A stretch of 64,000 bases of DNA from Spirochaetia bacterium (lineage in GTDB: Bacteria > Spirochaetota > Spirochaetia > DSM-16054 > Sediminispirochaetaceae). A program made the position numbers. Of the stretch, positions 20,901-26,900 are shown in pieces (position 1 is the first letter of the stretch; each line of letters begins with the position of its first letter). Location: positions 480,001 to 544,000 of the forward strand of contig JAXHMY010000001.1 in assembly GCA_034520965.1 (NCBI GenBank). Direction: 5' to 3'.

Positions 20901-23900
20901 TCCTCCGCATGCTTACGCTCGGTAACATCGGAACCTGAAAGGAGCAATCCTATACCTCCATTCCAGGACGCTGGCCGCGGCACATTGTGCCAACTGATAA
21001 TAAGTTTGTTTCCGTTTTTTGCTTTAAGCGCATACTCACTGTAAGCAAACTCTTCCGATACCCCGCTAAGCAGTTTTTCGAGCCCTTCCCGTACCTCTTT
21101 CGGATGAGAATCCCCGTGCAGCAGCTCTACCCATTTTGTCTCCATCAGTTCCTGCGAGGAGTAACCTATAATTAGTCGCAGCATGCTGATTGATGGTGAG
21201 AATTTCCAGATCAGCATCGAGTTCGACAATCAGCGACTCGGAGACCTCCAAATATTTCTCGGCACGGTTGCGCTCCATTTCAGTTCTAGCCCGGGAAGCC
21301 TCCAGCTCTCTGGTTCTCCTCCGCACCCGTTGCTCCAGATCCAGACTATACTGCTCCTTGAGCTCTCGCTGTCGCCGCTCTTCCAGCACTACTGCGGTCA
21401 GGAAACAAAGGTTTTGTATAAATGGAGCGTAGGGTTCGAATCGACCCTCATCAAGTACCTCAAATATAAGGGTTCCAAAATGGGTGCGGTCCATAAAGAC
21501 AGGAAAATATTTAAAACCCTCCCTGGTGTCCCCTTCCGTCTCCAATTTTTCGGTGGAAAGGCGATTTGTTACCTCCCCGACACCAGGTACTTCTTCCAGG
21601 CCCCGACATATAAATTCGAACATCGATTCTTGCTCGGTAAAACTTCCGAGCATATCTTGAAGTACCATAATTCGGGAGAGGACCTGTGCCTCAACCTCTG
21701 AAGAGGGCTTATCTTGAAAATTATGGTTACTGCTCATTGCTATTCGACGAGGTTATGCTGCGATAAAAACTCTTCGGGAGGAATAAAAAACGGGTTATGA
21801 ATAACAGAACCACGAACGACCATCATCGGATGAACCTTCAGCACATCCATGATCATCGCCCCATCAAACTCAGCGGCATTGTACTGACACACAGTAGTAA
21901 TGGGTTTCTCCCTTAGCAGCATACTTACCCGAGATTCATACTCGAGCAGGCGTTCCCCCCCTTCAATCCGTCCAATATCAGCGGTCATCTCCCCTATCAC
22001 ACGTGCTCCGTGAAAACCTTTCTCATCTGCACCTTGATAGAACTCCGAAAGGAGCGCAAGCATCCGGTCAGGATCAAACCTCTCGTCCTTGTAGTAGACA
22101 TCTGAGGTGCGTTGGAGCAGAAGCGCTGTACTCCGCTCCAGCTCCTTGAGGGAAATCTTATCACCTTCTAAATAATGCTCAAGCAGCTCCCAGGTAATGT
22201 CATTCGAGAAACAGGCCGCTCTTTTCCCGCAGCTCAATCCCCTTACTTAAAAACTTCAGGAGCGCCTCATTTCGCTCGTCTTCATCGTTGTATATTTGGC
22301 AAATATGCGTACCCGGTGGAAGAGTTGTGTGGCCAAAGCCCAAATCAACGTCTTGTTTATTCATATTTTCTCCTATTTTCACTATTGTGCTTAATCGGCG
22401 TAATGTCAAATATTTTACTCTTCCTGCTGTTACTATCTCCCATGAATTACTCGAATATTCTCAGCTCTGCTTGACAAAAAAGAAAAATTTGTGCATTGTC
22501 ATCTTTACCTAAAGGGGGCGTAGCGAAGATGGTTATCGCGCCGGCCTGTCAAGCCGGAGATCGCGGGTTCAATCCCCGTCGCTCCCGCTAAAAGCCGTTC
22601 GACTTGTGTCGGACGGCTTTTTTGTTGTATGTACCACAAATTGTCTATCCCACAAATTAAACCTCCTAGAACTCCGTCCATGCCAATATAGCTGCAGAAT
22701 TTGAATTCCGATTTCTTAGATAGTATAATTAAAGTATGTATTCGTATATAAGAATTACATGTCGTCTAGTCACATTTATTGTCTGTTCAAAATAAAAAAA
22801 TATGTTTAAAAGGAGTCTATTATGGCTGAAGACGAAAATCGTATTATGATGATTTCCACTCATGGGTATGTAGCTGCCGAAGCACCACTGGGAGCACCAG
22901 ATACCGGTGGTCAGGTTGTATATGTTCTCGAATTATCGAAAAAACTGGCTCAATTCGGAAACAAGGTGGACATCTGGACCCGCCGTTTTGAAGATCAGCC
23001 GGAGCTTGAAGAGGTTGATGAAAATGTACGAATCATTCGGGTGCCCTGCGGCGGTAAAGATTTTATCCCCAAGGAGTATCTAAATGAGAAAATCCCGGAG
23101 TGGGTTAAGAACGCCCTTGGATACATTAAGAAAAACAATCTGTCCTACTCCTTTGTAAACAGTCATTACTGGGATGCCGGCCTGGCCGGTCACATGCTCA
23201 GTGAAAAACTGGATATCCCGCATGTGCATACTCCCCACTCTTTGGGTACCTGGAAGAAAGAACAAATGGAGACCGACTACGCCGAGGACGCTCAGGCTTT
23301 TGAGGAAAAATACAACTTTACCAATCGTATTAAGTATGAAACTATGATTTATCGCTCCTGCGACCTTCTTATCGCCACGACCCCCGTACAGGTGGATAAA
23401 ATCGAGAGCGATTACGATGTTCCTCAAAAAAGAATTCGAATGATACCTCCGGGGTATGATGATAACCGCTTTTTTCCGGTTGGGGAATCGAGCCGGCAAG
23501 CAGTTCGAGCACAGCTTGGCTTTACAGGCCATACTGTCTTTGCAGTTTCCAGACTCGCCAACAACAAGGGGCTGGACCTTCTTATCGACAGCTTTTCCCT
23601 GCTTGCCGAACGCATGGAAGATGCCCAGCTGGTACTTGCAATAGGACATGAGGATCGCAGTGAAGGCGAGGAGGAAATATACCAGGATCTGCTTTCGCTT
23701 ATAGATAAACACAATCTAAAGGATAAGGTAACATTTATCGGGTTTATTCCCGACGAAGAGCTTCCGGACTACTACCGGGCGGCAGACCTATTTGCTCTCT
23801 CCAGCCGGTATGAACCCTTCGGTATGACCGCGATAGAAGCGATGGCCAGCGGAACCCCCTGTGTTGTTACTATTCACGGAGGCCTATGCCGGGTATTAGA

Positions 23901-26900
23901 ATACGGAATACATGCACAGTTTGCCGATACTTTTGATCGTGAGGATCTTGGGATTAGTATGTATCAGGCACTGAAGTATAAATCTCTGCACCGACGAATG
24001 GCGGAAAAGGGAGCTCAACGGGCCCGAGCTCGATTTACCTGGACCGGTATTGCCCAGAAACTTCTTAACGATGTAGAAAATCTCACGGATGTTACACACA
24101 TTAGCGACATAAAGCCGAAGGAACATATTTAAGGCCCATATCTAAGAAATAGGCGCGAGGAGAGCCCACGCATGAGCGAACAGATTAAATTATTCTCATC
24201 CGATTTAGACGGTACACTGCTGGGTAAGCCGGATGCCACATTGGCATTTCACCATACTTGGAACAAGCTACGGGAAACCTCCGATCCATCTCCGGCGCCG
24301 GTCTTGGTATACAACTCGGGAAGGCTGCTGCCGCACACTTTAGAAGTAATGAAGGCCAGCCATCTGCCGGACCCTGACTACCTAATATGCGGGGTTGGAA
24401 CAATTATATTTGATTATAAAAAGCGGGAGTATATCAAAGTCTTTGCCGATACACTGAACACCGGATGGGACCGCGAGCTTGTGCAGCATGTGATGCACTC
24501 CTTTTCGAATATTGAAGAACAGCCAAAAAAATACCAAAATAAGTTTAAATCCAGTTGGTACATCCACGACGCTCCTTCGGAGAGAATAGAGGAGATCCGG
24601 AAAGCTTTGGAGGATGAAGGTTTATCCGTAAATGTTATTTATTCCTCCAGTCGAGATTTAGATATTCTGCCCCAATATGCAAATAAGGGAAATGCACTCA
24701 ATTGGCTGCTTCACTGGCTTGGAATATCTTCGAGTGAAACCCTTGTAGCCGGAGATACCGGGAACGATAATTCGATGTTCCAGATCCGTAATATTAAAGG
24801 TATTATCGTCGAGAACGCCCAGCCGGAGCTCTTTCTTGAGACCATCGAAAAACCTACCTATTCAGCCACCAAGCCCTTTGCGGACGGGGTGCTGGAAGGT
24901 CTCATGCATTTCGGAGTGATCTCAAGAATCGAAGATGTCAGTAGTGAAGAGCTCAGCCATAAAAACTTTGACCCGCAACTCCATAATTTAGTTCGGTCGG
25001 AGTCTTTTAAGCACTCTCTTCCGATCAAATTGAGCTTATCAATACCGCCTACGATGAGGCCTTGAAGGCCCTGCGTAAAAACATCACCCCCTACGGTTTC
25101 TCTGCGTGCAGCTTGTCGGATAACACCTTTAAGTCTACCGACGAAAATTACCGCAGTGTATGGGCCCGTGACGGGGCAATAACCGTCATGCAATCTCTGT
25201 CGGTGGAAGACGAAGATATTCGGGAGTGCCAGCGGGCCACCTTGGCGACCCTCTTGGAACATATCTCTCCGCGCGGCCAGGTACCCAGTAATGTACGCAT
25301 AGACACACAGATGCCGGATTACTCGGGTGTAGGCGAAATTGCCTCTATCGACGGGGGGCTCTGGTTGGTGATTGCATTTTATCATTATGTTCGGCAAACC
25401 CGGGACTACCAGTTTCTCCGCATCTGGGCGAACGAAATTACGCTGGCCATGAACTGGCTCGAGGCCCACGACAGCAATAACGATTCTTTGCTGGAAATTC
25501 CCGAAGCCGGCGACTGGATGGATCTGTTCGGCCGCAGTTACAACGTCCTCTACGATGAAGTCTTGTGGTACTATGCCAATCTTACCCATGGGAGAATTGC
25601 AGAGCTGTTAGGGGATTTTGGCCTTTCCAGCTACCGTTTGCGATTAGCTCAAAGCATCAAGGAGGCAATCAATCGTAAGTTCTGGCCTTCGATTCATAGC
25701 GAGAATATCCGCAAATTTTCCGAGCAGCAGTACACCCTGGGCGACACCCATTATCTGCTGGCGGAAATTACTCCCTTTGGCTTTGACTGGCGCTGTGATG
25801 TGTACGGTAATCTCTTGGCGGCATTGTTTAACGTACTAAGTATGGACCGGGCCAAGATGGCCTTTAACTTCATGTGGGGGGTCGGGGCCAACGAACCTGC
25901 TCCGGTAGTGAACTTGTATCCCCCCGTTTTATCGGGAGACCCGCAGTGGCGTCCTTATTATACGGTTAATCTGCTAAATCTGCCCGATCATTATCATAAC
26001 GGCGGGGTGTGGCCGTTCATTGGCGCGTACTGGGTTATGTTCATCAGCCGGCTGGGTCTGCGCGATTTAGCGCAGCAGGAGCTATACCGTTTGGCCCTTG
26101 TAAACCAACAGGGGATTGAATCCGACTGGGAATTTAACGAGTGGGTGCATGGAAAAACCGGTCGCCCGATGGGCAAACGCTATCAAGCCTGGTCGGCAGC
26201 CGGATTCATCGGAGCCTACTACAACCTGCAAATAGAATTGATCGGCTAATTCCGCATTACGGCGGTATGCGACGCAGCGCGAATAATACGCAGTGAGTTC
26301 GCTACCGCCAGCAAGGCCACCCCAACATCGGCAAACACCGCCGCCCACATACTTGCCGCGCCGGCTATCCCAAGGAGCATCACAACTACCTTCACTGTCA
26401 GGGCGCCGACAATATTCTGCATTACAATTCGCCGAGTATAACCGGCAATACGAAATCCCTGGGCCAGCGTAGCCAAATCATCGTTCATTAACACAATATC
26501 CGCCGCTTCGACAGCAGCATCCGAGCCAAGCCCACCCATCGCAACACCTACATCGGCGCCGGCTAATACGGGTGCATCGTTTATACCATCCCCGACAAAC
26601 ATAACTGAATACTGACCGTTTGCCTCAGCCTTTAGCAATTCGAGGCTGCGCAGCTTGTCTTCCGGGAGCAGACGCGAGTAATAGCGATGGATGCCCGCCT
26701 CTTGGGCAATACGTTTAGCTGTGGTTGCATCATCGCCGGTCAGCATTACGGTGTCCTCTACTCCAAGTTCGTACAATTCCTGTAGTGCCCTGGGGGTCTC
26801 CGGTTTTAATTCATCGGTGATATTGATGTATCCCATATAATTGTTATCCACGGCTACATACACCACAGTCCCCTCCGCATCACAGTCCTCGTGGGGAATC

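What a model noticed while it worked through the whole genome (the two positions that open the first line are those of the whole stretch)
22822..26249. Mannosylfructose osmolyte operon with a conserved candidate hydrolase
g00540 and g00541 are mannosylfructose-phosphate synthase and phosphatase orthologues, followed by a divergent GH100-like glycosidase (g00542). The trio is kept across the family, predicting the rare osmolyte mannosylfructose in spirochaetes and naming a candidate for its breakdown.
Evidence so far: 64% to Agrobacterium MfpsA against 32% to the best sucrose-phosphate synthase, 43% to MfppA, 25% to alkaline invertases. Synthase in 14 of 16 relatives; all three genes in order in 13 of 14 loci, the 14th cut by a contig end; the glycosidase is 75-94% conserved. 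A true invertase lies elsewhere (g00096, call 55).
(Added by a program. Inside this text positions count along the whole contig: contig position 480,001 is position 1 of the stretch shown here. "Call 12" and the like, gene names such as g00115 and contig names such as C1 are that model's own, and its searches are not shown. The text may have been shortened before it was handed on; [...] marks where a part breaks off. The agent that wrote the report below was given it as the finding of a first reader that could run no searches.)

Follow-up and report, generated by a model that had tools for sequence, protein, structure and literature searches.

The report
Mannosylfructose synthase plus phosphatase-hydrolase fusion
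A spirochaete and many unrelated bacteria pair the likely synthase of a rare salt-protective sugar, mannosylfructose, with one untested protein that appears both to finish the sugar and to cut it apart again, which gives a concrete candidate for how this sugar is broken down.

Summary
The three coding stretches are real, but this is a two-gene operon, not a trio. Gene 1 (22822-24132) is an MfpsA-type GT4 synthase, 64% identical to an Agrobacterium-group protein. The phosphatase and the glycosidase are one fused gene of about 692 aa. It is intact in 12 of 14 family relatives with a hit and in a 99%-identical metagenome copy. Here a one-base loss at 25009-25011 splits it, most likely an assembly error, since 12 of 66 compared genes are frameshifted. 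The hydrolase domain has the GH100 fold (Z 43.8) and all catalytic residues but lies far from canonical invertases (about 23%). It tracks the MfpsA clade in Verrucomicrobiales (10 of 10) and Spirochaetota (3 of 4). Three fusions instead sit beside a true sucrose-phosphate synthase, so sucrose or dual specificity stays open. Best reading: a module that makes and removes mannosylfructose, probably switched by salt. Product and substrate are inferred. New variant of a known kind.

The parts
22822..24132 (+). MfpsA-type GT4 glycosyltransferase, 436 aa; predicted mannosylfructose-phosphate synthase
   Evidence: PF00534 119 bits; 64% to P0146; TIGR02472 (SPS) 229.7 bits against cut-off 576; H139, E331, E339 match TeSPS H158, E331, E339
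24172..26249 (+). One fused gene: HAD-IIB phosphatase plus GH100-like (alpha/alpha)6 hydrolase, about 692 aa, interrupted here by a one-base loss
   Evidence: single frame of 692-716 aa in 12 of 14 relatives with a hit; L083 and P0354 99% identical and intact; 116 of the best 120 homologues also carry PF05116
24172..24921 (+). Phosphatase domain (S6PP family) with motifs DLDGT, NSGR, K and GDTGND intact
   Evidence: PF05116 218.6 bits; TIGR01482 108.2 against 107.15; motifs
25009..25011 (+). One-base loss in a short A run after TTTT, in the interdomain linker; probable assembly error
   Evidence: 12 of 66 genes frameshifted against G012; contigs of runs X3 and X18 show one extra base here, run X1 does not bridge the place
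25011..26249 (+). Hydrolase domain, 412 aa open frame; acid D171 (25521), base E377 (26139), sugar anchor R53-D54, plus Y328, H329, W334, Q392, W394
   Evidence: PF12899 60.6 bits against 23.6; model pLDDT 94.5; best fold InvA Z 43.8, rmsd 2.8, 376 aligned; residues
22514..22621 (+). tRNA-Asp and a strong hairpin upstream; these separate the operon from upstream transcription and are not part of it
29083..32168 (-). Glycine-betaine-type ABC importer (binding protein, permease, ATPase); osmotic context
   Evidence: PF04069 204 bits; binding-protein gene near the operon in L020, L022, L025, L026, L039, L041 and L140, L142

Best explanation
A two-gene module that makes and removes mannosylfructose. 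Shown from sequence: an MfpsA-clade synthase is followed by a fused HAD phosphatase and GH100-like hydrolase, and all catalytic residues are intact. Inferred step 1: the synthase joins mannose from GDP- or ADP-mannose to fructose-6-phosphate. Inferred step 2: the N-terminal domain of the fusion removes the phosphate, and mannosylfructose builds up as a compatible solute. Inferred step 3: the C-terminal domain cleaves the alpha-mannoside bond by an inverting mechanism (D171 acid, E377 base), giving mannose and fructose. To avoid a futile cycle the hydrolase is most likely held off by high ion concentration and released when salt falls, as reported for Synechocystis invertase. The split in this genome is an assembly indel. 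Component odds: fusion as the family's normal state 0.97; product mannosylfructose about 0.7; the hydrolase cleaves it about 0.75 given that; salt switching about 0.5.
For: Fusion; the intact L083 protein folds with pTM 0.87. Synthase: 64% to P0146 with shared motifs that differ from SPS (NSHYWDAG, HTPHSLG, PPGYDD, YEPFGMTAIE); in the same clade as the Agrobacterium-type proteins (93/98) and apart from SPS. No SPS in G000. A mannose-1-phosphate guanylyltransferase-like gene is in 15 of 16 relatives. Co-occurrence in 151 Verrucomicrobiales genomes: all 10 with an MfpsA-clade synthase have the close hydrolase beside it, against 2 of 11 with an SPS-type gene. In 401 Spirochaetota genomes: 3 of 4 with MfpsA have it, and 0 of 13 with only a 30-32% match have the close hydrolase. 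Clan GH-G enzymes bind glucose and mannose in the same -1 site and hydrolyse both (PMC6608630). Synechocystis invertase falls to about half activity at 75 mM NaCl (PMC6753628). Mannosylfructose accumulates with NaCl in Agrobacterium (PMC2918589). Osmotic neighbours: a betaine importer and an MscS-like gene beside the synthase in L131.
Against: No member of the fused family or of the window's synthase subclade has been assayed, as far as my searches reach. Three fusions (L038, L040, L168) lie beside a true SPS, in genomes where no MfpsA-type gene was found; that SPS's own phosphatase-like domain lacks DxDxT. Their sugar pocket is almost identical to the window's. The window's phosphatase groups with these (99) rather than with rhizobial MfppA-like proteins. 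The glucose 2-OH in SPS contacts the nucleotide phosphate, not a side chain (PMC7264703), so the donor cannot be read from sequence. The GDP-mannose enzyme was not found in G000 itself (86% complete). The hydrolase is dispensable: it is missing from Agrobacterium-type loci and from the one-contig genome G375. Run X1 does not bridge the indel.
Confidence: 0.55

Rival explanations
1. The module makes and cleaves sucrose, or the fusion handles both sucrose and mannosylfructose: a divergent SPS with a fused sucrose-phosphatase and invertase.
For: SPS-partnered fusions in three Verrucomicrobiales genomes. Best fold and profile matches are sucrose invertases. All -1 subsite residues are of the type seen in glucoside-cleaving GH-G enzymes. 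Sucrose is predicted as an osmoprotectant in a Kiritimatiella strain (PMC5148204).
Against: The synthase is 64% identical to the Agrobacterium type and far below the SPS cut-off. Positions 48 and 174 separate MfpsA-partnered hydrolases (R/K and G in 52 of 52) from SPS-partnered ones (N/H and N in 3 of 3), though the three are close kin. G000 keeps a separate canonical invertase, but only 4 of 17 family genomes do.
Confidence: 0.22
2. The fusion runs a constitutive or overflow cycle rather than storing an osmolyte: the disaccharide, or its 6-phosphate, is cut as soon as it is made, releasing mannose and fructose (or fructose-6-phosphate) and spending nucleotide-sugar energy.
For: Making and breaking activities share one chain with an apparently fixed arrangement (pTM 0.87). 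A PfkB-type kinase follows the fusion in L103 (below all cut-offs). A basic residue at position 48 beside the N46-Y47 pocket motif could bind a phosphate (speculative).
Against: The pathway works without the hydrolase in Agrobacterium, where the product accumulates. The neighbours are osmotic genes. Five genomes keep the three enzymes as separate genes.
Confidence: 0.12
3. In this strain the frameshift is real: the phosphatase is intact and the hydrolase is lost or made separately from TTG 25062, a step toward the Agrobacterium-type two-enzyme state.
For: Loss of the hydrolase has happened elsewhere (G375, Agrobacterium-type loci, the Paracoccus plasmid L130). The indel lies after the whole phosphatase domain. 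No near-identical read set bridges it.
Against: 12 of 66 compared genes are frameshifted, including ones I recognise as topA, polA and lysS from their sequence. The site is a homopolymer junction. A start at 25062 would cut the first barrel helix (residues 4-22). The hydrolase is 99% identical to the intact L083 copy.
Confidence: 0.06
4. The clade makes a different hexosyl-fructoside or a related glycoside that is neither sucrose nor mannosylfructose.
For: The window's synthase subclade (10 rows, 90/99) is sister to the group that holds the Agrobacterium type, not nested in it.
Against: Active-site motifs are the same as in the Agrobacterium-type synthase.
Confidence: 0.05

Closest known systems
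Agrobacterium mfpsA-mfppA mannosylfructose operon (Torres and Salerno 2007; title seen in a reference list; content recalled)
   Same: Synthase 64% identical, same motifs, followed directly by an S6PP-family phosphatase (41%) in the same order.
   Different: Here the phosphatase carries a 412-aa hydrolase domain. None of 24 Agrobacterium-type loci with at least 3 kb downstream has it; whole Agrobacterium genomes could not be searched.
GH100 alkaline/neutral invertases (Anabaena InvA 5GOP/5GOQ, InvB 5Z73/5Z74, Arabidopsis 6TTJ)
   Same: Same barrel (Z 40.5-43.8, next family 36.9); acid, base and sugar anchor conserved; Pfam PF12899 passed.
   Different: Only 18-24% identical and a separate clade. 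W-x-D-L-F replaces the M-I-D-R-R of invertases at the acid. Fused to a phosphatase and tied to an MfpsA-clade synthase.
Cyanobacterial sucrose and glucosylglycerol turnover (Sps/Spp/Inv, GgpS/GgpP/GghA)
   Same: Same logic: synthase, phosphatase and hydrolase, with ions setting the balance (PMC6753628).
   Different: There the enzymes are separate proteins and the sugar is glucose-based.
GH63 mannosylglycerate and glucosylglycerate hydrolases (4WVA, 5OHC)
   Same: Same clan; break down an osmolyte; accept both glucose and mannose at subsite -1 (PMC6608630).
   Different: Lower structural match (Z 34.5); PF22422 below cut-off; aglycone is glycerate.
Trehalose-phosphatase plus GH15 trehalase-type fusion proteins of Actinomycetota
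   Same: Same design, a sugar-phosphate phosphatase joined to an (alpha/alpha)6 glycosidase (Atlas cluster, score 0.82, a lead only).
   Different: Different phosphatase and glycosidase families and a different sugar.

Membership tests
Mannosylfructose-phosphate synthase (MfpsA) | GT4/GT-B enzyme with catalytic His and the E-x7-E motif | tested here: met
   H139, E331, E339
Mannosylfructose-phosphate synthase (MfpsA) | Groups with the Agrobacterium-type protein and apart from SPS | tested here: met
   64% to P0146; 31-row clade 93/98, SPS outgroup 100/100. The strain C58 sequence was not in the set.
Mannosylfructose-phosphate synthase (MfpsA) | Followed by an S6PP-family phosphatase in one operon | tested here: met
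   39-base gap, same strand
Mannosylfructose-phosphate synthase (MfpsA) | Uses GDP- or ADP-mannose and fructose-6-phosphate | not testable with these tools
   needs an assay; a ManC-like gene is in 15 of 16 relatives but was not found in G000
Sucrose-phosphate synthase (TIGR02472) | Score at or above 576 bits | tested here: not met
   229.7 bits; L040 and L038 SPS score 612.8 and 673.5
MfppA / SPP subfamily HAD-IIB phosphatase | HAD motifs I-IV intact and TIGR01482 cut-off reached | tested here: met
   108.2 against 107.15. The equivalog TIGR01485 is missed (171.9 against 183.65).
MfppA / SPP subfamily HAD-IIB phosphatase | Stand-alone protein of about 250 aa | tested here: not met
   fused, about 692 aa, in 12 of 14 relatives with a hit
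GH100 (family level) | PF12899 above cut-off, (alpha/alpha)6 barrel closest to InvA, Asp acid and Glu base | tested here: met
   60.6 against 23.6 bits; Z 43.8; D171 and E377 align to InvA 188 and 414 (their catalytic role recalled, numbering fixed by W376 and W434 in PMC13671375)
Canonical alkaline/neutral invertase | High similarity to and grouping with cyanobacterial and plant invertases | tested here: not met
   23% to the genome's own invertase, which scores 646 bits on PF12899; long separating branch
Canonical alkaline/neutral invertase | Strict sucrose specificity | not testable with these tools
   needs an assay
GH63 mannosylglycerate hydrolase | PF22422 or NF047898 above cut-off | tested here: not met
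   20.8 against 27; 22.2 against 550

The most novel reading that the evidence does not exclude
The fused domain is the first dedicated mannosylfructose hydrolase, an alpha-mannosidase branch of GH100. The single-chain phosphatase-hydrolase is an ion-switched make-or-break enzyme and the ancestral partner of MfpsA across several phyla, with the textbook Agrobacterium operon a reduced form. One Verrucomicrobiales lineage re-tuned it to sucrose through changes at positions 48 and 174.
Probability: 0.3. Interest if true: 0.7.

Novelty: new variant of a known kind. Interest (0 to 1): 0.5.

Why it matters
Among the papers I could reach, mannosylfructose is reported only from Agrobacterium and some rhizobial isolates, and none names an enzyme that degrades it. 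This locus predicts the solute in spirochaetes and other phyla and names one protein to assay, with cultured carriers at hand (P0377 Sediminispirochaeta smaragdinae, P0375, P0453 Pelagicoccus albus, P0473 Rariglobus hedericola). A mannoside-cleaving GH100 would widen a family regarded as sucrose-specific. A protein holding the last synthesis step and the first breakdown step asks how a futile cycle is avoided. In practice these proteins are annotated only as HAD hydrolase or sucrose phosphatase, so the larger domain goes unnoticed.

Tried and rejected
Three-gene reading for this locus: rejected. Programmed frameshift: rejected, because relatives are in frame and I saw no slippery heptamer by eye. 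Reads: near-identical contigs of run X1 end at 25008 and resume at 25043, so they neither confirm nor refute the indel; the small-share runs are relatives and say nothing on this strain or its habitat. One search aligned several loci on the wrong strand; only L001, L002 and L005 were usable, and searches replaced it. I first took D114 as the catalytic acid; the profile alignment to InvA shows it is D171, so an idea about S112 as a mannose determinant was dropped. 'Agrobacterium lost the hydrolase' is favoured by the ML trees (nested at 97/91 and 98/98), but the AU test does not reject a single clade of fusion carriers (p 0.12; 37 of the 82 synthase rows used), and the phosphatase tree puts rhizobial proteins as sister to the fused ones (64 of 84 rows). 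Direction is therefore not shown. A whole-genome search of Agrobacterium-type records was not possible. The plasmid collection gave only distant hydrolases (7 records, 25-37%) and one 47% synthase. The promoter scan was at chance level (2 found, 5.0 expected). Literature: 10 searches; none showed a paper on the fusion or on mannosylfructose breakdown. Most subscription papers are not held and no supplements were read. The InvA structure paper is not held. No complex prediction was run.
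Full report
WHAT IS IN THE SEQUENCE. 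Three + strand ORFs lie at 22822-24132 (436 aa), 24172-25065 (297 aa) and 25062-26249 (395 aa from a TTG; the frame is open from 25011). Pfam calls them GT4, S6PP and Glyco_hydro_100/GDE_C. Upstream are tRNA-Asp and a hairpin. Downstream a P-type metal ATPase converges on the stop, and a betaine-type ABC importer follows at 29083-32168.

THE TRIO IS TWO GENES. Of 16 family relatives, 14 match the glycosidase. In 12 of them the match lies in an open frame of 692-716 aa that also holds the phosphatase motif DLDGT; G009 has a separate break inside the phosphatase part and G008 ends at a contig edge. The metagenome locus L083 is 99% identical in both domains and intact. DNA alignments show one base missing in the window at 25009-25011. 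Of the 120 best homologues, 116 also carry PF05116; the other four are two marked partial and two on contigs under 3 kb. Against 120 kb of G012, 12 of 66 comparable genes are frameshifted in G000, including ones I recognise as topA, polA, lysS and uvrD (names from my own knowledge). An assembly error is therefore much more likely than a real split. It is not proven: near-identical contigs of run X1 stop at 25008 and resume at 25043, while contigs of relatives in runs X3 and X18 carry one extra base there.

SYNTHASE. It is 64% identical to P0146, a Rhizobium/Agrobacterium-group protein in a 392-member cluster with members annotated mannosylfructose-phosphate synthase, and scores 229.7 against a cut-off of 576 on the SPS model. 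H139, E331 and E339 match the residues shown to matter in T. elongatus SPS (PMC7264703, passages; alignment; positions). In that structure the glucose 2-OH contacts the UDP phosphate, so sequence cannot distinguish glucose from mannose donors; the assignment rests on orthology. In a tree of 37 of 82 synthases, the window groups with the Agrobacterium type (93/98) apart from SPS, but in a sister subclade with no assayed member that I know of. G000 has no SPS. A mannose-1-phosphate guanylyltransferase-like gene is present in 15 of 16 relatives (below the bifunctional model's cut-off in all) but was not found in G000, where its neighbours are missing too.

FUSION PROTEIN. All four HAD motifs are intact. 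The hydrolase model is confident (pLDDT 94.5) and matches GH100 invertases best: InvA Z 43.8, rmsd 2.8 over 376 residues, next family Z 36.9, GH63 mannosylglycerate hydrolase Z 34.5. The profile alignment places D171 on InvA 188 and E377 on 414 (their catalytic role is recalled, and the W-x-D acid pattern agrees with GH176 in PMC13671375, passages). N46, Y47, R53, D54, W169, D171, Y328, H329, W334, E377, Q392 and W394 are invariant in all 57 distinct close sequences examined. Identity to canonical invertases is only 18-24% and the family forms its own clade (58 rows). The wider family is large (1007 clusters at E up to 0.001), and its distant members are mostly stand-alone proteins of about 400 aa. 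The intact L083 fusion folds with pTM 0.87, which suggests the two domains pack in a defined way. GH63 enzymes of the same clan bind glucose and mannose in one -1 site and hydrolyse both (PMC6608630, passages), so the conserved pocket allows mannoside cleavage but does not prove it.

WHO CARRIES IT. Among 80 metagenome loci found with an Agrobacterium synthase, 47 have at least 3 kb downstream. None of 24 at 75% or more identity to P0146 has the hydrolase, 20 of 21 at 55-75% have it, and 0 of 2 more distant ones have it (the loci are partly redundant, and only flanks were seen). In 151 Verrucomicrobiales genomes, 10 have an MfpsA-clade synthase and all 10 have the close hydrolase beside it. 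Five are fused; five are a true three-gene form (phosphatase, synthase, hydrolase) with a 44-48% synthase. Eleven have SPS-type genes and 2 of them have the fusion beside the SPS. In 401 Spirochaetota genomes, 4 have the MfpsA type and 3 of these have the fusion; G375 has a bare 267-aa phosphatase. None of the 13 with only a 30-32% synthase match has the close hydrolase; G389 has a 30% relative. Kin are not independent, so these are counts, not tests. Named records include Anaerolineales, Sumerlaeota, Deltaproteobacteria, Opitutaceae and Luteolibacter.

THE SUCROSE CAVEAT. In Luteolibacter pohnpeiensis (L040), L038 and L168 the fusion precedes an SPS whose C-terminal phosphatase-like domain lacks DxDxT; the L040 and L038 proteins pass the TIGR02472 cut-off, and no MfpsA-type gene was found in those genomes. 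There the fusion probably acts on sucrose-phosphate and sucrose. Only three columns separate these from the 52 MfpsA-partnered sequences: 48 (R/K against N/H), 174 (G against N) and 211. The first two lie beside pocket motifs and are candidate specificity sites, but the SPS-partnered sequences are close kin and may be one event. The phosphatase tree joins them to the window's clade.

MECHANISM. Shown: gene structure, folds, intact catalytic residues and co-occurrence. Inferred: GDP- or ADP-mannose plus fructose-6-phosphate gives mannosylfructose-6-phosphate; the HAD domain releases mannosylfructose; the barrel domain hydrolyses it to mannose and fructose with inversion. A single chain cannot separate the two activities by expression, so control must be biochemical. 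The best precedent is Synechocystis invertase, about halved at 75 mM NaCl and near 15% at 145 mM (PMC6753628, passages). Salt-dependent accumulation of mannosylfructose is reported for Agrobacterium and Acacia rhizobia (PMC2918589, passages). The donor specificity of MfpsA is recalled from Torres and Salerno 2007, of which I saw only the citation.

HISTORY. ML trees nest the rhizobial synthases inside fusion carriers, and hydrolase-free forms also occur in G375 and on a Paracoccus plasmid, which suggests repeated loss. The AU test (p 0.12) does not exclude the alternative, so this remains a suggestion.

NOVELTY. Ten literature searches showed no paper on the fusion or on mannosylfructose breakdown. 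PMC7356697, PMC4201361, PMC5148204 and PMC10661998 were read as keyword passages and do not describe it. The library lacks most subscription papers and I read no supplements. Databases hold the architecture under generic names. Verdict: a real, conserved and uncharacterised variant of the SPS/MFPS type of pathway. Interest 0.5.

Noticed in passing
G000 as a whole; window 15403-16611, 32500-33353, 33377 onward: The assembly is rich in frameshifts (12 of 66 genes against G012). Other split-gene or short-ORF findings from this genome should be treated with caution.
   Followed up: yes
G000:C1:82824-85045 (L016): Canonical alkaline/neutral invertase followed by a glucose-1-dehydrogenase-like SDR; present in only 4 of 17 family genomes, and the genome has no SPS.
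   Followed up: partly
L163-L167 (G491, G522, G523, G515, G487): A true three-gene form, phosphatase-synthase-hydrolase, with a more distant (44-48%) synthase in five Verrucomicrobiales genomes.
   Followed up: partly
L060:4965-7052: A rhizobial-type locus in which synthase and phosphatase lie in one 696-aa frame; real fusion or indel not checked.
   Followed up: no
L090:6325-8028, L093:6897-8648, L103:9501-10397, L131:2812-3363: A sodium:solute symporter-like gene between synthase and fusion, a PfkB-type kinase after the fusion, and an MscS-like channel after the synthase in some loci.
   Followed up: partly
P0202, P0203: Distant fusions (52-54% in the hydrolase) whose phosphatase-like domain has lost the DxDxT motif.
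   Followed up: no
P0023, P0302, P0334, P0336: Distant members of this hydrolase family fused to other domains: PfkB (P0023, PF00294) or an N-terminal P-loop-like segment.
   Followed up: no
13 Spirochaetota genomes: 30-32% synthase matches, 12 of them in frames of 716-818 aa, typical of SPS-SPP; sucrose synthesis may be scattered through the phylum.
   Followed up: no
window 13746-14422, 17061-18208, 18318-18653: Small toxin-antitoxin-like and nucleotidyltransferase-like gene pairs, judged from sequence only.
   Followed up: no
L023 (G009), about 2830-2930: An apparent duplication-insertion of about 155 bases shifts the frame inside the phosphatase part.
   Followed up: partly
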